Source: a virus (taxonomy: Duplodnaviria > Heunggongvirae > Uroviricota > Caudoviricetes). From it: 5,573 nucleotides of DNA. A program made the position numbers and the translations under genes. Each line of letters opens with the position of its first letter. Positions within the stretch are counted from its first letter, which is position 1. Under the pieces are notes generated by a model, which was not told the origin of the DNA, made no database searches, and saw only the letters and a list, made by a program, of their open reading frames with translations. This document shows positions 1 to 5,573 of this stretch, one piece after another. Where the stretch lies: the IMG/VR virus record IMGVR_UViG_2526164693_000014, one strand, 5' to 3'.

Positions 1-206
1 CGATCTACAGATTCCCCGAAACGCTTCTCCATAAATAATTCATAGGCTGCCCGTTCATCCGATACTGATGCCAGTGATGCCAGTGCAATTTTTAATGCGG
101 TAAGCATGTTGTTTTGATCTTCATCGAGTCCGAACGGTATTTCATCCCGTGATGACTCAATTCCGGTAATCGTGTTCTGTAGCCATTCTTTGGTTAATTC
201 AGTCAT
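1..206 (-). CDS. Hypothetical protein, 5'-partial in window (start inside, continues past the left edge)
   Basis: Hand translation from ATG at 206..204 gives MTELTKEWLQNTITGIESSRDEIPFGLDEDQNNMLTALKIALASLASVSDERAAYELFMEKRFGESVD with no stop before the edge; an in-frame TGA lies two codons upstream of the ATG. Not in the ORF track because it has no stop in the window. No family recognised. Confidence 0.5.
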   Translation of the reverse strand, partial: MTELTKEWLQNTITGIESSRDEIPFGLDEDQNNMLTALKIALASLASVSDERAAYELFMEKRFGESVD

Positions 207-214
207 TTTTCACT

Positions 215-232
215 ACCGCCCTTTCGGGCGGT
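215..232 (-). other. GC-rich stem-loop (7-bp stem ACCGCCC/GGGCGGT, GAAA loop on the minus-strand transcript) between an AGGAG motif and the start codon at 206
   Basis: Perfect inverted repeat accgccc-tttc-gggcggt seen directly. No U-run follows it on either strand, so it is not a canonical intrinsic terminator. Confidence 0.4.
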
Positions 233-332
233 CTCCTGATGTTCTGAGGGTGCAGGAATCCCTCCGGTTAAGGATTTAATAAAAATCATTTCTGATTTAA
301 ATTTTCAGTGTTTAGTTGTTGGTTTATAGCCT

Positions 333-644
333 TTATGCTTCGGCCTTATTTCTCAGCCATACACAAACAGGACCATCTTCGGTGTCATGTATCGAACCGA
401 TAAACCATCCCTCACCTTCTGGTCGCTCAGGTTCCCATGCTGAAATATCAGGGCCATCTGCGTCCAGATTAAAATCATCTTCATCCATACTACGGATAGC
501 CCACTGAAGATTATTTTTCTCCATCCAGGCGTTAAACTCTTCCGTTGAAATATATTCCCGACCATCACAGAATTTTTCATATTCAGGATGCGTCCAGCAG
601 CCATATTCATTACGTTCCACTGGCATTTCTTTAATTACGCTCAT
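333..644 (-). CDS. Hypothetical small acidic protein (103 aa), prophage accessory gene
   Basis: ORF-track ORF; AAGGGGGG Shine-Dalgarno-like motif upstream of the ATG at 644; start overlaps the stop of the upstream gene (ATGA). No family recognised. Confidence 0.6.
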   Translation of the reverse strand: MSVIKEMPVERNEYGCWTHPEYEKFCDGREYISTEEFNAWMEKNNLQWAIRSMDEDDFNLDADGPDISAWEPERPEGEGWFIGSIHDTEDGPVCVWLRNKAEA

Positions 645-829
645 TTACCCCCCTTATTTAATTTTCTACGACACTTTTTACAATCATCTGGACTTTCGAA
701 TGTATCCGGCTCACGCTCATTGCCAAAATACATCCACCCACCGCAAATACTTGTTATTTCACCTTCAGCAAAATAATGATGTTTTTTCGCCATAAGTGGC
801 CTTGCCCAGCCCGGATTCGTTTTACTCAC
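641..829 (-). CDS. Hypothetical small Cys-containing protein (62 aa), GTG start
   Basis: GTG at 829 overlaps the upstream stop (GTGA) and is preceded by AAGGAGG with about a 6-nt spacer; an alternative ATG at 793 has no RBS. Cys pattern SICGG...DCKKC could be a small zinc-binding motif (inference). Confidence 0.5.
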   Translation of the reverse strand: MSKTNPGWARPLMAKKHHYFAEGEITSICGGWMYFGNEREPDTFESPDDCKKCRRKLNKGGK

Positions 830-1182
830 TTGTTGCCTCCTTTGCGAAGCTCTGCGACTAACTCGTCACATATGTGCGTCAAAGAGCAAAGTTTGATTGC
901 TGGATGTTCGCGCACCATCTCCACACCCTGCGCCCGCAATTCTGCCAGAAAAGCGTAGGGGTCAGTTTTTTCACTGTGGTACATGGCATCATAGATAATC
1001 ATTGCAGCGACACCTGCCTGTCCTGCATCTGTGACGGATATATGCTCAAGGGCTACGGCCATTGCGTGTTTCAACCTCTCATTTTCCACCTCAAGCACCA
1101 CACGATTAGCCTCCAGCTCTTCTATGCGTTTTTTTGCTGCTCCCAGCTCAACACGCAGCTCCTGATAGTTAATCTCGCTCAT
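826..1182 (-). CDS. Hypothetical protein (118 aa) with a predicted N-terminal coiled coil
   Basis: ORF-track ORF; strong RBS (GGGAGGAAGGAGA) upstream of the ATG at 1182; ATGA overlap with the upstream gene; N-terminal heptad-like ELRVELGAAKKRIEELEANRVVLEVENERLK. Confidence 0.6.
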   Translation of the reverse strand: MSEINYQELRVELGAAKKRIEELEANRVVLEVENERLKHAMAVALEHISVTDAGQAGVAAMIIYDAMYHSEKTDPYAFLAELRAQGVEMVREHPAIKLCSLTHICDELVAELRKGGNK

Positions 1183-1403
1183 TCTCCTTCCTCCCGCACT
1201 GCTGTTTTATATGCCCGAAGCACATGCGATGTTTTTCCTGACACAGTGCTTCTCAGAAAGAAAATTCCACTGGTGTTTATTACCAGATACGGGTCAGCAA
1301 GACGCAGCATATCCAGTATGTGATTATGTTTTCTTGTTTCCAGCACCGTACTTGAAATAAGCATATGTGACACGGGGCCGAAATCATGATATCTGATTTT
1401 CAT
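1179..1403 (-). CDS. Hypothetical protein (74 aa)
   Basis: ORF-track ORF; AGGGTGA-like RBS upstream of the ATG at 1403; first of four translationally coupled small genes. No family recognised. Confidence 0.45.
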   Translation of the reverse strand: MKIRYHDFGPVSHMLISSTVLETRKHNHILDMLRLADPYLVINTSGIFFLRSTVSGKTSHVLRAYKTAVREEGE

Positions 1404-1424
1404 ATCATCACCCTGCTGTAAAAA

Positions 1425-2123
1425 TTACCCGTTATCTCCTGTCGTTATTTTCTGTATGACATCACGATGCTTATTAATTTCCCGCAGCGCGGCGCATAAG
1501 CGCTCCCACTTCTGAACCTGACCTTTTGCCCGGCGCAGCTCGCGGTTAGCCACATGCAGCGATGGTAAAATCAGACCATCCGGATGCTTTCTGATGAACG
1601 ACGACTGTGACTGCACTGTGACCGCCACACTTTCAGTTTTAATTTCTTCCTGTGTTTCCGCTTCCCGGACTGGTAACGCAACACCTGCCGGCTGAGGAAA
1701 GGCTTTACCATCGGTTTCCGTTACCGATGCAGCTTTCGGCTCTGCCGGTAAATTATCGCCCGGTATGCAGTAACGATATTTACCGTCCTGATTTACGCGA
1801 ATCAGACGACCTTTGCTGACAGCCATCGCCAGTGATGAATTCGCCCGGCGGGAGGTAATCCCGAACATTAACGCCAGTTCGTCAGCCGACTGAGGACCAT
1901 GCTGTTCAATCGCGTTAATCAGCATCTCTGCAGTGGTTTTTGGGGCCGCTTCAGTTGCCTCACTCGTCAGCCACCACATCGACCCCTTGTTATCAGCTTC
2001 GCCACGACGCTTCAGCTTCCAGAGTTCGGTAACAGCATCGTCACGGCTGATTTCAAGACGGGCTGCAATCTCGTGCGACGAGGCTTTTTTCAGTGCTTTC
2101 AGTGCGTCAAAAACGGTTTCCAT
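1425..2123 (-). CDS. Hypothetical prophage protein (232 aa) with two winged-helix-like segments
   Basis: Track ORF is 1425..2189, but the ATG at 2123 has a GGAGG RBS about 6 nt upstream (ccgggaggaaaatttaATG) and avoids overlap with the P-like gene. Two segments resemble each other and wHTH folds (inference). Confidence 0.6.
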
Positions 2124-2157
2124 TAAATTTTCCTCCCGGTAAAAATTACTTCTCAAC

Positions 2158-2823
2158 TCAGACAAAACCGGCCGCCTTCCGGCGCTCATATTCCTGTTTC
2201 AGCAATTCAATTGGCGTTGGCCCTGGCGGGCGTTTGGGTGCTGCCAGTTGTCGCCGGACTGGCGGAACACTGAGGCCATTACCAACATGCTTTGCCCATT
2301 TCGTCAGTTGCCGTTCTGCAAGCCGTTTTAATTCCCCTTCGGTCATCTGGCGCTCAATCCCCTTTGAACGCATCTCGAGGCAAATGTGATACAGCACAGG
2401 CTGAGACCACGGGTACTTATCACTTCCGTCGTATCGCCAGGACTCATTGCGCCAGCGGCGGTACTCCTCCATCACAGCATCCACCGTCAGACCGAATGGA
2501 TTGGCTCCGCTTTTCGAAATCAGTGCCACAAACTCAGCCAGGTCCGGAGGCCATGTTTCACCCGCCCGGCAGCGGTCCATGCACTGGCGGCAGACCTGCC
2601 GGATTTGCTGCTCAGTCATCGCGCCAATCTGTGCAATCCAGAGCTTCGAAGGTGCGGCCCCGTTCTTCTGGATCCAGCGGTTCGAATAAACCACCCCCAT
2701 GAGTTCCCACAGCTTCCAGGCCGTTTCCGTCGCTGATAAATCCGTTTTCACGTTCCCACTGCTCACGTGCTGCCCGAATTTCCTGAACTGCCCGTGATGC
2801 GGTGCCACCTGGTGCTGCTGCAT
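2158..2823 (-). CDS. Phage replication protein P-like (lambda P family, DnaB helicase loader)
   Basis: Recalled similarity to lambda P: [18 protein letters not shown]...[13 protein letters not shown] here versus lambda ESYPWKSNAHYWLVTNLYQNMR...TDAELRRKAADEL, plus an upstream MTEQQ segment. The ATG at 2823 has an AAGGGG RBS with 6-nt spacer but overlaps the O-like gene by 212 bp out of frame; in-frame ATGs at 2700 and 2619 are alternative starts. Confidence 0.75.
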
Positions 2824-3652
2824 GGTTTACCCCTTTGCTGACTGGTTTAACCTGCGCCCTGACGTGATTTACGTGACGGGCGAATTTCTGCTCCCACTGA
2901 ATCTGCGTAAACACTTTCCCCTCCGCTGCCCAGTAGTCCCGGAAGGCGGCAAGTTCAGCAGGTGTAAATTCTGTCTCCGGCAAAGCCATCCCCCACAACG
3001 CAGCCCGTCGTCGAAAATCCCGTGACGGATACCAGCTATCGCTCATCGGGAATTTTCCGATGGGTTCGCTCAGGCCATACAGGAATACAGGGGGGGCTGC
3101 CTGTAACGACAAAACTTCCTGCTCACTGGTCGGAGCACTCTCGCGTGCGTTATGTGTGGGGTTTAGATCTTTGGGTTCCTTTGGGTTCCGTGATCCGTTT
3201 TTGGGTGTCTTTGATGGAAAATTTGGGTGTCTTTGGTTATTTTCCATGCAGCTAAGAGTTCTGTTTTTGGGTCTGTTTTGTGCTGAAACATAACCATTTT
3301 CGGTACTGTTTTTATTAACAGCACCAATTTTACCCACCTTTAAAGACTCCCGTTTTTGGGTGTATTCAGGCTCGGCAACACTTTCTTCTACACCGATAAG
3401 TCGGTACACCACAATTTGCTTTGTTCTGCCTTTTCTCTCACCGGTATCAACAATTAACCCAATCTCCATCAGGTGTCGTAAGCTGTCCTGCACAGTCTTT
3501 TTGTTCAGTTCCGTTACTTCTGCCAGTGCAGATACAGACGGGTATGCACACAAATCGGCACCGCACATATCAGCAAGCCAGGTCAATACTGACTTACTGG
3601 ATGAACTGCCGGTTTTCACCTTTTTAGCCCATCGTAGTGCATCGATACTCAT
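2612..3652 (-). CDS. Replication initiator, lambda O-like: N-terminal HTH DNA-binding domain, low-complexity linker, C-terminal DnaT-like domain
   Basis: C-terminal region GKFPMSDSWYPSRDFRRRAALWGMALPETEFTPAELAAFRDYWAAEGKVFTQIQWEQKFARHV closely matches the E. coli DnaT C-terminal region as I recall it. Start set at ATG 3652 (MSIDALRWAKK..., G-rich RBS); the track's 3727 start would overlap the upstream gene further. Confidence 0.8.
   Translation of the reverse strand: MSIDALRWAKKVKTGSSSSKSVLTWLADMCGADLCAYPSVSALAEVTELNKKTVQDSLRHLMEIGLIVDTGERKGRTKQIVVYRLIGVEESVAEPEYTQKRESLKVGKIGAVNKNSTENGYVSAQNRPKNRTLSCMENNQRHPNFPSKTPKNGSRNPKEPKDLNPTHNARESAPTSEQEVLSLQAAPPVFLYGLSEPIGKFPMSDSWYPSRDFRRRAALWGMALPETEFTPAELAAFRDYWAAEGKVFTQIQWEQKFARHVNHVRAQVKPVSKGVNHAAAPGGTASRAVQEIRAAREQWERENGFISDGNGLEAVGTHGGGLFEPLDPEERGRTFEALDCTDWRDD
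3170..3365. repeat. Candidate origin of replication: iteron-like direct repeats (core TTTGGGT) with an adjacent AT-rich tract, inside the O-like linker
   Basis: Seen directly: tandem TTTGGGTTCC at 3170..3189; TTTGGGTGTCTTTG at 3200..3213 and again at 3222..3235 (22-bp register); TTTGGGTCTGTTTTG at 3266..3280; TTTGGGTGT at 3355..3363; AT-rich stretch about 3285..3340. Lambda ori is likewise iterons plus an AT-rich region inside O. Confidence 0.6.
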
Positions 3653-4175
3653 ACGCCCCCCTGGCAGACATTTGTTTATCTGCAAAGTAATATTGGTATT
3701 GCTGACGATACGCGTGCTTGAAAGCAATAGCTTTTTCTATAAGCTCGTCAGTCTCACGTTCCACAACAACTGGATCCGCAAAAAGCAGCCCGGACTCCAC
3801 CACATCGCCATATTCTTTGTTTAACCCGGCGATCATGTACGTAATGCTTTTTCCGTCAGTAATTTCACAATACAATCTGAAATCGCTGATCCGGATAGCC
3901 TCCATAATTGCCGGAATCAGCGCCGTGAATTTGTCACGCTTATCTCTGGTGTCGATAGCTTTCCAGCGTTCGAATATCTTCACCCGGTTAACGCCCAGCG
4001 CCCGTTGATCAACCTCGCCATCATTAAACGTGACGCGTTGAACATCGATGTTCGGGCGTTCTTTCAGAGCCCAGAATGCTTCCGTGATTAATATCGTCGC
4101 CTGCTCCTGTGTCATTCCTGGTCGGCATACCCAGGTATCCAGAGCCTCACAAACCTGTTCAGTGGTGATTTTCAT
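3624..4175 (-). CDS. YdaT-like protein in the cII position (183 aa)
   Basis: Sits between the Cro-like and O-like genes. The segment FTALIPAIMEAIRISDFRLYCEI resembles the Rac-prophage YdaT segment as I recall it; this is from memory and unverified. Overlaps the Cro-like gene by 17 bp and the O-like gene by 29 bp. Confidence 0.65.
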   Translation of the reverse strand: MKITTEQVCEALDTWVCRPGMTQEQATILITEAFWALKERPNIDVQRVTFNDGEVDQRALGVNRVKIFERWKAIDTRDKRDKFTALIPAIMEAIRISDFRLYCEITDGKSITYMIAGLNKEYGDVVESGLLFADPVVVERETDELIEKAIAFKHAYRQQYQYYFADKQMSARGAYEYRCTTMG

Positions 4176-4386
4176 TGTTCAACCGCCCCGCCCGCTTTGC
4201 CTTACGATATTCGTCATAAACTTTGGGGTCGTACTGAAGTTCCCCGCCGGATGCCTCTTGCAGGCGCATCGCGCGACCTTCAGGAACCAGTTCCCCCCAT
4301 GCAGCAACGCTTGCCAGCCTAACTCCTGCGACATTGGCAAGCTTTGTTTTGCTGCCAAAAAACGCTATAGCATCAATTTTCAACAT
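4159..4386 (-). CDS. Cro-like small DNA-binding regulator (YdaS/DicC-like, 75 aa)
   Basis: Divergent from the repressor gene across a 76-bp operator region; the pattern AGVRLASVAAWGELVPEGRAMRLQEASGGELQYDP fits the Cro/YdaS-type fold family; first gene of the leftward operon. Confidence 0.75.
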   Translation of the reverse strand: MLKIDAIAFFGSKTKLANVAGVRLASVAAWGELVPEGRAMRLQEASGGELQYDPKVYDEYRKAKRAGRLNNENHH

Positions 4387-4462
4387 ATCGAAACCCTTAG
4401 ATTTTCCTAAGGAAACTAGATCGTAGAGAAACCTAAGTCAAGAAAAATTAGAATTACCTAAT
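4387..4462. promoter_or_regulatory. Divergent operator/promoter region (OR-like) between the Cro-like and repressor genes
   Basis: Perfect inverted repeat CCTTAG-N6-CTAAGG at 4395..4412 and a third half-site CCTAAG at 4432..4437. Plus strand: -10-like TAGAAT at 4449..4454 only 8 nt before the repressor ATG, with no SD. Minus strand: TTGACT (-35) at 4441..4436 with a weak -10. Confidence 0.6.
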
Positions 4463-4870
4463 ATGAAAAACGAAACCTTCGGTGCTCGCCTCTTATACAG
4501 GCGAAAAAAATTAAAACTGTCTCAGGCCGCATTAGGTAAGCTGGTCAAAGTCGCTCACGTAACAATTTCTCAATGGGAAAGAGATGAAACACAGCCAGCG
4601 GGGAAGAGATTATTCGCACTGAGCCAGGCGCTTCAGTGCTCGCCGACTTGGCTTCTTTTTGGAGATGAAGATAAGCAACCAGGCGAACCGATCCCAGATA
4701 ATCAGCCAGTCAATCTGACAGAAGATCAAAAAGAGTTGCTTCAACTGTTCGACGCACTGCCTGAGTCAGAGCAAAAGGCTCTGTTGTCAGAGATGCGTGC
4801 TCGAGTTGAGAATTTCAACAAACTTTTTGAAGAACTACTCAAAGCTCGCAAAAGAAGCGCAAATAAATAA
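4463..4870 (+). CDS. dicA: Prophage immunity repressor, DicA-type HTH_XRE regulator (135 aa, cI functional analogue, no S24 peptidase domain)
   Basis: N-terminal HTH (LSQAALGKLVKVAHVTISQWERDETQP); CSPTWLLFGDEDKQP and the C-terminal NFNKLFEELLKAR tail match my recollection of E. coli Qin DicA; same length; divergent from a Cro-like gene. The symbol means DicA-family homologue, not necessarily the K-12 locus. Confidence 0.85.
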   Translation: MKNETFGARLLYRRKKLKLSQAALGKLVKVAHVTISQWERDETQPAGKRLFALSQALQCSPTWLLFGDEDKQPGEPIPDNQPVNLTEDQKELLQLFDALPESEQKALLSEMRARVENFNKLFEELLKARKRSANK

Positions 4871-4900
4871 CCCCCCTTTTTTTCGCAACTCTCTGTAATA

Positions 4901-4933
4901 AAAAGCACAAACTTTCAAATACTTGTGTTTTTT
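4901..4933 (+). terminator. Weak candidate intrinsic terminator downstream of the repressor gene
   Basis: Short stem GCACAA/TTGTG with a 12-nt loop followed by a T6 run, flanked upstream by an A-tract. The stem is short and AU-rich, so this is tentative. Confidence 0.3.
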
Positions 4934-4941
4934 ACATCAAG

Positions 4942-4998
4942 AAGCTTAGGTTTTTCTACACAAAAAGCTTGACCATAACTCTTAGGCTATTCTAAATT
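4942..4998 (+). promoter_or_regulatory. pL-like rightward promoter candidate with operator-like half-sites (OL-like)
   Basis: TTGACC at 4969..4974, then a 17-18-nt spacer and CTAAAT/TAAATT at 4992..4998. CTTAGG half-sites at 4945..4950 and 4982..4987, the second inside the spacer; same motif as in the OR-like region. Confidence 0.45.
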
Positions 4999-5133
4999 CT
5001 ACTCATCAAGACACCGCACGGTGTTCTCAGCAAACAGTTCCGCTACCCGGCGTTAAGGGGAAGCAGAGGATTTCTCAGTGGGCGAGTCAAACATCAGAAT
5101 GGAAGGCGTCCAGGGATCAGCAAAGAAACAGCG

Positions 5134-5433
5134 ATGGCGCTTTATATTGATATCAGCGCCATTGCCGGACAGGTAAGAGTTATCAGAGCGGTAACTAAGC
5201 GGTATGCGCCTTTACTTCAGAAAGTCTCTGGTGAGTGCACCGAAGATATTGTCAACGATTTCGTCATCGAACTGCGAGGACTCATCTTCAGTTACAAGGT
5301 GACCACAATTTTTGCAGATGGCTCCCGCGAAACTGTCAGAGCCCTGCGGCTTAAAGGATGTGTCAAAGACTTAGCCACCACATTCTGGGCAAGAAAACTT
5401 GATTGTATTCATAACCAATTTCCTCTCGAGTAA
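5134..5433 (+). CDS. Hypothetical protein (99 aa), first long ORF downstream of the pL-like promoter; coding status uncertain
   Basis: Only ORF of 60 aa or more on either strand in 4871..5505; weak RBS (AAGAAACAGCG); several rare AGA/GGA/CGA codons; no N-like arginine-rich motif; no family recognised. Confidence 0.4.
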   Translation: MALYIDISAIAGQVRVIRAVTKRYAPLLQKVSGECTEDIVNDFVIELRGLIFSYKVTTIFADGSRETVRALRLKGCVKDLATTFWARKLDCIHNQFPLE

Positions 5434-5505
5434 CAGACCCCTCAGAGGATACCACCTCGCCTGACGTGGTTAAAAAGCAGGCAACGCTAACCACAAGGAG
5501 CCGAC

Positions 5506-5573
5506 ATGCAGAAACGAGACCCCGTCATCATCGCGCCAGACTATACCGATGATGAACTTTATGAGTGGATGCA
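5506..5573 (+). CDS. Hypothetical protein, 3'-partial in window (start only: MQKRDPVIIAPDYTDDELYEWM...)
   Basis: ATG at 5506 preceded by AAGGAG with a 5-nt spacer; open to the right edge. Function unknown. Confidence 0.5.
   Translation, partial: MQKRDPVIIAPDYTDDELYEWM

What the first reader, a model, noticed from the sequence alone, without database searches (positions are those of the whole stretch)
4463..4870. Immunity repressor lacks an autocleavage domain, so induction cannot follow the lambda RecA/CI route
The 135-aa repressor consists of an HTH_XRE domain plus a short C-terminal helical tail. It is too short to contain a LexA/S24 peptidase domain with its Ser/Lys dyad. Prophages with such repressors are either induced through a separate antirepressor or are not SOS-inducible. 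No antirepressor candidate is identifiable in this window; the unknown small proteins on either side are the only candidates.
Basis: partly seen in the sequence, partly recalled or inferred. Interest (0 to 1): 0.45.

Follow-up and report, generated by a model that had tools for sequence, protein, structure and literature searches.

The report
DicA-type non-cleavable prophage repressor
The gene encodes a short DicA-family prophage repressor identical to that of E. coli O157 prophage Sp9; that it lacks a self-cleavage domain, and that such repressors use a small antirepressor instead, is already published, so the finding is correct but ordinary.

Summary
Window 4463-4870 (+) encodes a 135-aa protein with an N-terminal Cro/CI-type HTH, a linker and two C-terminal helices. 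It has no Peptidase_S24 domain, no beta structure and no linker Ala-Gly site. It is a full-length member of the DicA family (NCBIfam NF007257, 241.6 bits) and 63% identical to E. coli K-12 DicA. It is encoded by DNA 100% identical to the repressor gene ECs_1765 of O157:H7 Sakai prophage Sp9.

Asadulghani et al. 2009 stated that the Sp9 repressor lacks the peptidase domain and that Sp9 is not mitomycin-inducible. Lemire et al. 2011 showed that the homologous Gifsy repressors are uncleaved and are inactivated by antirepressors, and named DicA as a homologue. Ragunathan et al. 2023 identified Rem as the DicA antirepressor.

The window holds no Rem homologue and no meaningful LexA box. In Sp9 a Rem homologue lies about 5.4 kb from the repressor, beyond the window's left end. 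The window is a mosaic: its left 2.25 kb is identical to a different O157 prophage that has an S24 repressor and no rem.

Five CTTAG-N6-CTAAG operator-like sites flank the gene.

Novelty: already known. Interest: low.

The parts
4463..4870 (+). dicA-like immunity repressor gene (135 aa), identical to ECs_1765 of prophage Sp9
   Evidence: ORF. NCBIfam NF007257 DicA, 241.6 bits, positions 1-135/135. 100% DNA identity to Sakai Sp9. 63% identity to K-12 DicA.
4478..4660 (+). N-terminal Cro/CI-type HTH DNA-binding domain (residues 6-66)
   Evidence: Pfam HTH_3. P22 C2 N-terminal domain, E 1e-21. Foldseek match to 3jxb, TM(target) 0.97, rmsd 0.5.
4721..4864 (+). C-terminal helical tail (residues 87-134) with the conserved motif ELLxLFDALPESEQ...RARVENFNxLFEELLKARKR. 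Inferred to be the dimerisation surface and antirepressor target.
   Evidence: AF2 helices 87-98 and 101-134 at pLDDT ~86-95. Conserved across 37 homologues. Motif shared with Gifsy-2 GtgR. The function is an inference.
4396..4411 (.). Operator-like site O1, CTTAGATTTTCCTAAG, a perfect palindrome next to the dicC start. It is the positional equivalent of K-12 Oc.
   Evidence: K-12 Oc, TTGTTAGTCATAACTAACAA, has the same TTAG-N6-CTAA core and was shown in vivo to bind DicA (PMC3441716).
4422..4437 (.). Operator-like site O2, CGTAGAGAAACCTAAG
4447..4462 (.). Operator-like site O3, ATTAGAATTACCTAAT. It abuts the repressor ATG.
4945..4960 (.). Operator-like site O4, CTTAGGTTTTTCTACA, just upstream of the -35 of the early promoter downstream of dicA
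4981..4996 (.). Operator-like site O5, CTTAGGCTATTCTAAA, overlapping the spacer and -10 of that promoter
4969..4998 (+). dicBp-like (PL-equivalent) promoter: TTGACC, 18-nt spacer, TAAATT
   Evidence: Promoter scan. It aligns with the TTGACC of K-12 dicBp.
4159..4386 (-). Divergent dicC (Cro-like) gene, 75 aa
   Evidence: NCBIfam DicC, 167.6 bits. Pfam P22_Cro. 83% identity to K-12 DicC.
3624..4175 (-). YdaT-family gene in the cII position, 183 aa
   Evidence: Pfam YdaT_toxin.
4899..4934 (.). AT-rich hairpin (TAAAAAGCACAA / TTGTGTTTTTTA) after the repressor stop codon. It is a possible terminator separating dicA from the downstream promoter.
   Evidence: Inverted repeat I9. The terminator function is inferred; the terminator scan did not call it.

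Best explanation
This is the immunity repressor of a lambdoid prophage of the Qin/Sp9 type, a DicA-family protein.

Inferred from the palindromic sites: the protein binds as a dimer to 16-bp CTTAG-N6-CTAAG operators. Three sites lie in the dicC-dicA intergenic region, over the Cro-side promoter. Two flank the early promoter downstream of dicA, which drives the ORF99-ydfC...dicB-exo-xis-int operon.

Shown here: the protein has a P22 C2-like HTH domain, but in place of the S24 self-cleaving domain it carries a short two-helix tail. RecA therefore cannot inactivate it directly.

Inferred from literature on the identical or homologous proteins: derepression occurs in two ways.
(i) The DicA/DicC bistable switch flips stochastically, independently of RecA. 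This fits Sp9 being spontaneously excised and packaged but not boosted by mitomycin C.
(ii) A small Rem-type antirepressor, when made, blocks repression. Its gene sits in the nin region in Sp9 and Qin, outside this window. It has no LexA box, and its inducing signal is unknown.
For: Family membership and architecture.

Identity with the Sp9 repressor.

Operators:
- Eight strand matches of TTAG-N6-CTA, all within the five sites, against 0.40 expected; 0 of 200 shuffles reached this number.
- These are the only such sites in 41 kb around Sp9.
- The core is the same as the experimentally defined K-12 Oc.

Homology to the experimentally uncleaved Gifsy-2 GtgR: 30% identity, E 1e-11, including the tail motif (PMC3121763).

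Sp9 repressor lacks the peptidase domain and Sp9 is not MMC-inducible: PMC2669165.

Rem derepresses dicBp 165-fold, and spontaneous switching is independent of RecA and Rem: PMC10448788.

Rem homologue in Sp9: 85 aa, 72% identical to K-12 Rem, flagged PF27490.

No LexA box is associated with any candidate gene in the window, Sp9 or the left-arm donor, while the Gifsy-2 control box was recovered.
Against: - No experiment was done on this exact element.
- DNA binding, dimerisation through the tail, and a Rem-repressor interaction are inferred for the Sp9 allele.
- The window's left 2.25 kb comes from a prophage lineage that has no rem in the fetched stretch (no hit in 20.8 kb). The element that carries this window may therefore lack a cis-encoded Rem.
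- Rem shows no detectable pairwise similarity to the Gifsy antirepressor GftA, so the analogy between the two systems rests on the repressor side and on the K-12 experiment.
Confidence: 0.85

Rival explanations
1. The gene is a truncated, defective remnant of a P22 C2 / phage 21 cI-type S24 repressor that lost its C-terminal domain. The prophage would then simply be regulation-defective.
For: The N-terminal 69 residues are ~57-69% identical to the P22 C2 and phage 21 repressors, and the homology stops there. Asadulghani et al. scored the Sp9 repressor 'D' in their Table 1.
Against: The 135-aa length and the tail are conserved. There are 299 homologues, and the best 120 are mostly 133-151 aa across Enterobacterales. 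The tail motif is strongly conserved, with invariant L95, L99, P100, S102, R114, E124 and L126. The full-length NCBIfam model matches end to end. K-12 DicA of the same architecture is a working repressor and activator. Viable phages carry such repressors.
Confidence: 0.03
2. Gifsy-style SOS induction: a LexA-repressed operon elsewhere in the prophage (dinI, antirepressor, irsA) makes an antirepressor after DNA damage.
For: The repressor is homologous to GtgR. Lemire et al. proposed this for DicA-like repressors generally. Phage phiES15, which carries a DicA-like repressor, was obtained by UV induction according to its record.
Against: - The window has one exact CTGT-N8-ACAG, inside the O gene, and one further match at one mismatch inside the P gene. 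This is chance level: 2 matches found against 1.73 expected.
- None stands upstream of a candidate gene in the whole of Sp9 or in the left-arm donor. The same pattern recovers the Gifsy-2 box at dinI.
- No gene in the annotated or called gene lists of the fetched Sp9 or left-arm donor stretches is annotated as, or hits, DinI.
- The rem upstream region has no LexA box.
- Circular Sp9 DNA decreased rather than increased after mitomycin C.
Confidence: 0.05
3. Inactivation is by the P22 Ant-like protein encoded in the late/lysis region (ECs_1785 type: P22_AR_N plus ORF11CD3 domains), acting in cis or from another resident prophage.
For: Sp9 and the left-arm donor prophage both encode such a protein between the endolysin and Rz genes. 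The repressor's DNA-binding domain is 62% identical to that of P22 C2, the natural target of P22 Ant (established knowledge).
Against: A gene sitting among the late lysis genes would be expected to be made only after derepression, so it cannot be the trigger in cis. No experiment links this protein family to DicA-type repressors. Which part of C2 is bound by Ant was not checked here.
Confidence: 0.07

Closest known systems
DicA of the E. coli K-12 cryptic prophage Qin (with DicC, dicBp and Rem)
   Same: - Both are 135 aa, with 63% identity over the whole length.
- Both belong to the same NCBIfam family.
- Both have a divergent DicC at 83% identity.
- The operator core is the same (TTAG-N6-CTAA) and sits in the same positions: next to the dicC start, and over a TTGACC promoter downstream of dicA.
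- The transcript leader is conserved and a ydfC gene lies downstream.
- The parental prophage has a Rem homologue in the same hok-to-DUF968 interval.
   Different: - The bases flanking the operator differ: C/G here against G/C in K-12.
- The recognition-helix region differs slightly (AHVTISQWERD against SHVSVSQWERG), so immunity specificity may differ.
- The genes between dicA and ydfC differ: a 99-aa ORF here instead of ydfA/ydfB.
- The replication module is intact here, whereas Qin is a cryptic remnant.
Repressor ECs_1765 of prophage Sp9 (PPompW-type phages) of E. coli O157:H7 Sakai
   Same: Window 2300-5573 has no mismatch to Sp9. It has already been described as lacking the peptidase domain, in a prophage that is spontaneously but not mitomycin-inducible (PMC2669165).
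   Different: The window's left 2.25 kb (the genes after P) is instead 100% identical to another O157 prophage (EDL933, 2.77 Mb) that has an S24 repressor and no rem.
Gifsy-1/-2/-3 repressors (GfoR, GtgR, GfhR) with LexA-controlled antirepressors (GfoA, GftA, GfhA)
   Same: Both are short (about 136 aa) HTH repressors with a helical tail carrying the LLxLFxxLPExE motif. Identity to GtgR is 30% at E 1e-11. The Gifsy proteins are not cleaved on induction and are inactivated by binding of a small protein.
   Different: No LexA box, dinI or irsA module was found here or in Sp9. Rem has no detectable pairwise similarity to GftA. Sp9 is not SOS-inducible.
P22 C2, phage 21 cI and lambda CI (S24 self-cleaving repressors)
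   Same: [quoted passage not shown] The divergent repressor/Cro layout, with multiple operators on both sides of the repressor gene, is also shared.
   Different: There is no S24 domain, no linker Ala-Gly and no beta structure. Direct RecA-stimulated cleavage is therefore not possible.

Membership tests
DicA family (NCBIfam NF007257) | Full-length match to the family model above its curated cut-off | tested here: met
   241.6 bits against a cut-off of 101; residues 1-135 on model positions 1-135.
DicA family (NCBIfam NF007257) | N-terminal Cro/CI HTH plus a conserved ~50-residue helical tail, with total length of about 135 aa | tested here: met
DicA family (NCBIfam NF007257) | Divergently transcribed DicC (Cro-like) partner, and a second regulated promoter downstream of dicA | tested here: met
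   DicC model at 167.6 bits. Promoter at 4969-4998 flanked by two operator-like sites.
DicA family (NCBIfam NF007257) | Binding to an inverted-repeat operator of the Oc type | not testable with these tools
   Five sites with the same TTAG-N6-CTAA core as K-12 Oc are present and statistically enriched, but binding itself needs EMSA or footprinting.
LexA / lambda CI / P22 C2 self-cleaving repressors (Peptidase_S24) | C-terminal Peptidase_S24 domain carrying the Ser/Lys dyad | tested here: not met
   No S24 hit at E <= 0.1. The positive control was detected at 3.6e-9. 0 of 37 homologues hit S24. The model has no beta strand.
LexA / lambda CI / P22 C2 self-cleaving repressors (Peptidase_S24) | Ala-Gly (or Cys-Gly) cleavage site in the inter-domain linker | tested here: not met
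   The only AG is at residues 46-47, inside the HTH domain, and Ala46 is not among the conserved columns. The linker 67-86 has none.
LexA / lambda CI / P22 C2 self-cleaving repressors (Peptidase_S24) | RecA-stimulated cleavage on SOS induction | not testable with these tools
   This needs an immunoblot after mitomycin C. The literature reports no MMC induction of Sp9.
Gifsy-type repressor with a LexA-controlled antirepressor module | Short non-cleavable repressor homologous to GfoR/GtgR | tested here: met
   30% identity over 115 aa, E 1e-11, to Gifsy-2 STM1012.
Gifsy-type repressor with a LexA-controlled antirepressor module | LexA box followed by dinI and a small antirepressor gene, downstream of the replication genes | tested here: not met
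   Not present in the window, in Sp9 or in the left-arm donor. The control box in Gifsy-2 was recovered.
DicA-Rem repressor/antirepressor pair | Rem homologue encoded in the same prophage | tested here: inconclusive
   There is none in the window. One is present in parental Sp9, 5.4 kb from the repressor. None was found in the fetched 20.8-kb stretch of the prophage that donated the window's left arm. The rest of the window's own element could not be retrieved.
DicA-Rem repressor/antirepressor pair | Rem relieves repression by this repressor | not testable with these tools
   This has been shown only for the K-12 Qin pair (PMC10448788).

The most novel reading that the evidence does not exclude
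The element carrying this window is a recombinant. It joined the Sp9 immunity/replication module, with its non-cleavable DicA-type repressor, to the nin region of a prophage that uses an S24 repressor and has no rem. If the identity to that donor continues for another ~1.2 kb beyond the window, this prophage has lost its own antirepressor. It could then be induced only by stochastic DicA/DicC switching, or in trans by Rem proteins of other resident prophages. That would be a natural case of one prophage's induction being handed over to its neighbours.
Probability: 0.35. Interest if true: 0.3.

Novelty: already known. Interest (0 to 1): 0.1.

Why it matters
The finding matters little as a discovery. 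The identical protein was described in 2009 as lacking the peptidase domain, in a prophage that is not SOS-inducible. The family's antirepressor-based control was worked out in 2011 (Gifsy) and 2023 (DicA/Rem).

The remaining open point is what signal turns on Rem. That concerns a gene outside this window.

The practical value is correct annotation. RefSeq labels the repressor only 'helix-turn-helix domain-containing protein' and Rem 'hypothetical protein', and the Sakai record calls the Cro-like DicC gene an 'antirepressor'.

Sp9-type prophages carry type III effector genes (nleA, nleH, nleF, espM, espO, nleG), so their SOS-independent mobility has some relevance to virulence-gene spread.

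Tried and rejected
- Rfam scan of the whole window at E <= 1 found no RNA family. No known sRNA or nut element therefore explains the region downstream of dicA.
- LexA-box search (CTGT-N8-ACAG). The window has one exact match, inside the O gene, and one further match at one mismatch, which is chance level. Two further matches in distal Sp9 lie inside nleH and in a gene-free stretch. All were rejected as regulators of an antirepressor.
- Rem-like ORF in the window: tblastn with K-12 and Sp9 Rem gave only E > 0.4.
- Flanking small ORFs (74, 118, 62, 103 and 99 aa) matched only PHROGs of unknown function and gave no antirepressor hits.
- Retrieving the window's own genome. No complete E. coli genome holds the left 4 kb contiguously. 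An exact-protein look-up of the hybrid P protein found nothing with the long start and only a 1.9-kb draft contig with the short start. The rest of this particular prophage could therefore not be examined.
- Published suggestion that the DicA C-terminus resembles the RovA/SlyA winged helix (PMC3441716). Only 2 of 37 members gave weak MarR_2 hits, and the model shows just two helices. Not supported here.
- Structural neighbours of the whole model beyond the HTH (SinR-SinI, phi106 repressor-AimX, arbitrium repressor) align with rmsd 8-18 Å. They are kept only as functional analogies, not as evidence of homology.
- The local Pfam copy lacks PF27490 (Rem), so Rem was confirmed by BLASTP instead.

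Full report
**Observation**

The ORF at 4463-4870 (+) exists as described: ATG start, 135 codons, then a stop.

Pfam finds only helix-turn-helix families, with HTH_3 at residues 12-64 (E 4.3e-14). It finds no Peptidase_S24 even at E <= 0.1. The negative result is meaningful because the same library detects S24 at E 3.6e-9 in the 196-aa repressor of a sibling O157 prophage.

An AlphaFold2 model was built on a 37-sequence alignment (mean pLDDT 86.4). It is entirely helical, with five HTH helices at 6-66, a linker at 67-86, and helices at 87-98 and 101-134. There is not a single strand, so a cryptic S24 fold, which is beta-rich, is excluded.

Foldseek against the PDB returns the P22 C2 N-terminal domain as best match, with TM(target) 0.97, rmsd 0.5 Å and 62% identity. 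Sequence homology to the P22 C2 and phage 21 cI repressors ends at about residue 69.

The only Ala-Gly dipeptide is at residues 46-47, inside the HTH domain. Ala46 is not among the conserved columns of the family alignment, whereas Gly47 is invariant.

**What it is**

NCBIfam places the protein end to end in the DicA family: NF007257, 241.6 bits against a cut-off of 101. It is 63% identical to E. coli K-12 DicA over the full length.

The neighbours on the other strand form a lambdoid early-right arm:
- DicC/P22_Cro, 4159-4386
- a YdaT-family protein in the cII position, 3624-4175
- an O-like initiator with a DnaT domain, 2612-3652
- a lambda P-like loader, 2158-2823
- a DUF1627 protein, 1425-2189

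A database search found 299 homologues. The best 120 are mostly 133-151 aa, a few being partial or longer calls, and none carries S24. The tail motif ELLxLFDALPESEQ...RARVENFNxLFEELLKARKR is strongly conserved. The short form is therefore the native architecture of a widespread Enterobacterales family, not a truncation.

**Source**

Window 4100-5573 is 100% identical to prophage Sp9 of O157:H7 Sakai (repressor ECs_1765) and to hundreds of other O157 genomes.

A binned comparison shows no mismatch to Sp9 from about 2300 to 5573. It also shows no mismatch to a different EDL933 prophage from 1 to about 2250, so the crossover lies inside the P gene. That second prophage has an S24-type repressor.

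No complete E. coli genome in the collection holds the left 4 kb contiguously. The hybrid P protein is on record only on a 1.9-kb draft contig. The rest of this particular element could therefore not be read.

**Operators and promoters**

TTAG-N6-CTA occurs eight times (counting both strands) in the window, against 0.40 expected; 0 of 200 shuffles reached this number. All eight matches fall in five 16-bp sites of consensus CTTAG-N6-CTAAG:
- 4396-4411, a perfect palindrome
- 4422-4437
- 4447-4462
- 4945-4960
- 4981-4996

The first three lie between dicC and dicA. The last two flank a TTGACC-N18-TAAATT promoter downstream of dicA. These are the only such sites in 41 kb around Sp9.

The K-12 operator Oc, TTGTTAGTCATAACTAACAA, was shown in vivo to bind DicA (PMC3441716). 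It has the same TTAG-N6-CTAA core and the same position next to dicC. K-12 dicBp has equivalent sites over its TTGACC promoter.

The layout is thus that of lambda: an OR-like cluster, the repressor gene, then an OL/PL-like cluster. DNA binding itself was not tested.

**How induction works**

Direct RecA-stimulated self-cleavage is excluded by the architecture. The literature already says so for this very protein. Asadulghani et al. 2009 reported that the repressors of Sp4, Sp6, Sp9 and Sp10 lack the peptidase domain. They also reported that Sp9 is spontaneously excised and packaged, but that its circular DNA goes down rather than up after mitomycin C (PMC2669165).

Lemire et al. 2011 showed that the homologous Gifsy repressors are not cleaved and are inactivated by small LexA-controlled antirepressors. 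They named DicA and RacR as family members (PMC3121763). The window protein is 30% identical (E 1e-11) to Gifsy-2 GtgR, including the tail motif.

Ragunathan et al. 2023 showed that Qin-encoded Rem derepresses DicA-controlled dicBp 165-fold. They also showed that about 1% spontaneous switching is independent of RecA and Rem, and that the signal for Rem is unknown (PMC10448788).

**Antirepressor search**

The window contains no Rem-like ORF (tblastn E > 0.4). The flanking small ORFs match only families of unknown function.

In Sp9 and its relatives, an 85-aa Rem homologue lies between hok and a DUF968 gene. It is 72% identical to K-12 Rem and is flagged PF27490. It sits about 5.4 kb from the repressor gene, about 0.9 kb beyond the distance the window covers on that side. 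In one genome it is split by an IS element.

The prophage that donated the window's left arm has no Rem hit in the 20.8 kb fetched, and only 168 bp separate its hok gene from the next called gene.

The rem upstream region is 95% conserved between Sp9 and Qin. By my reading of the sequence it contains a TTGAAG-N18-TAGAAT promoter-like element with a TTCCGG...CCGGAA palindrome in the spacer. It has no LexA box and no DicA-type operator.

The LexA-box pattern recovers the known box at Gifsy-2 dinI. In the window it gives only chance-level matches: one exact match inside the O gene and one at one mismatch. In distal Sp9 it finds only two irrelevant sites, and in the left-arm donor none. A Gifsy-style SOS module is therefore not present.

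Sp9 and the donor prophage also encode a P22 Ant-like protein among the lysis genes. As a late gene it could not trigger induction in cis.

**Verdict**

The one thing specific to this window is its mosaic structure, which may have separated the repressor from its usual Rem partner. That could not be settled here.

Novelty: already known. Interest: low.

Noticed in passing
window 1-2250 versus 2300-5573: The window is a mosaic. The left 2.25 kb is 100% identical to an EDL933 prophage that has an S24-type repressor and no rem. The remainder is 100% identical to Sakai Sp9. The crossover lies inside the lambda P-like gene. No complete genome in the collection holds the junction.
   Followed up: partly
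window 5003-5056: A transcript leader of about 55 nt follows the dicBp-like promoter. It includes the hairpin ACACCGCACGGTGT and is nearly identical to the leader of K-12 Qin dicBp, although the promoters, operators and first genes differ. There was no Rfam match. It might be a nut-like or processing element.
   Followed up: no
window 4447-4465: The repressor ATG directly abuts operator-like site O3 and no Shine-Dalgarno sequence is visible. The same is true of K-12 dicA. This is reminiscent of the leaderless lambda cI mRNA made from PRM.
   Followed up: no
window 3170-3366: Several copies of a TTTGGGTGTCTTTG-type repeat lie in a lower-GC stretch inside the O-like gene. They look like lambdoid ori iterons. 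The single exact CTGT-N8-ACAG of the window (3306-3321) lies here and is probably part of the AT-rich origin rather than a LexA box.
   Followed up: partly
window 5134-5433: A 99-aa ORF (phrog_21318, unknown function, full-length match) is the first gene after the dicBp-like promoter. It replaces ydfA/ydfB of K-12. It is followed by the start of ydfC at 5507.
   Followed up: no
L001 14962-15110 (Sp9, upstream of rem, outside the window): A promoter-like TTGAAG-N18-TAGAAT has a TTCCGGACGGCGCCGGAA palindrome in its spacer. It lies just after the hok terminator and is 95% conserved with K-12 Qin. It is a candidate binding site for the unknown regulator of the Rem antirepressor.
   Followed up: partly
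L001 20060-20287 and L001 14704-14961: There are annotation problems in public records. The Sakai record calls the Cro-like DicC gene 'phage antirepressor'. RefSeq calls the Rem homologue 'hypothetical protein' and the DicA homologue only 'helix-turn-helix domain-containing protein'.
   Followed up: yes
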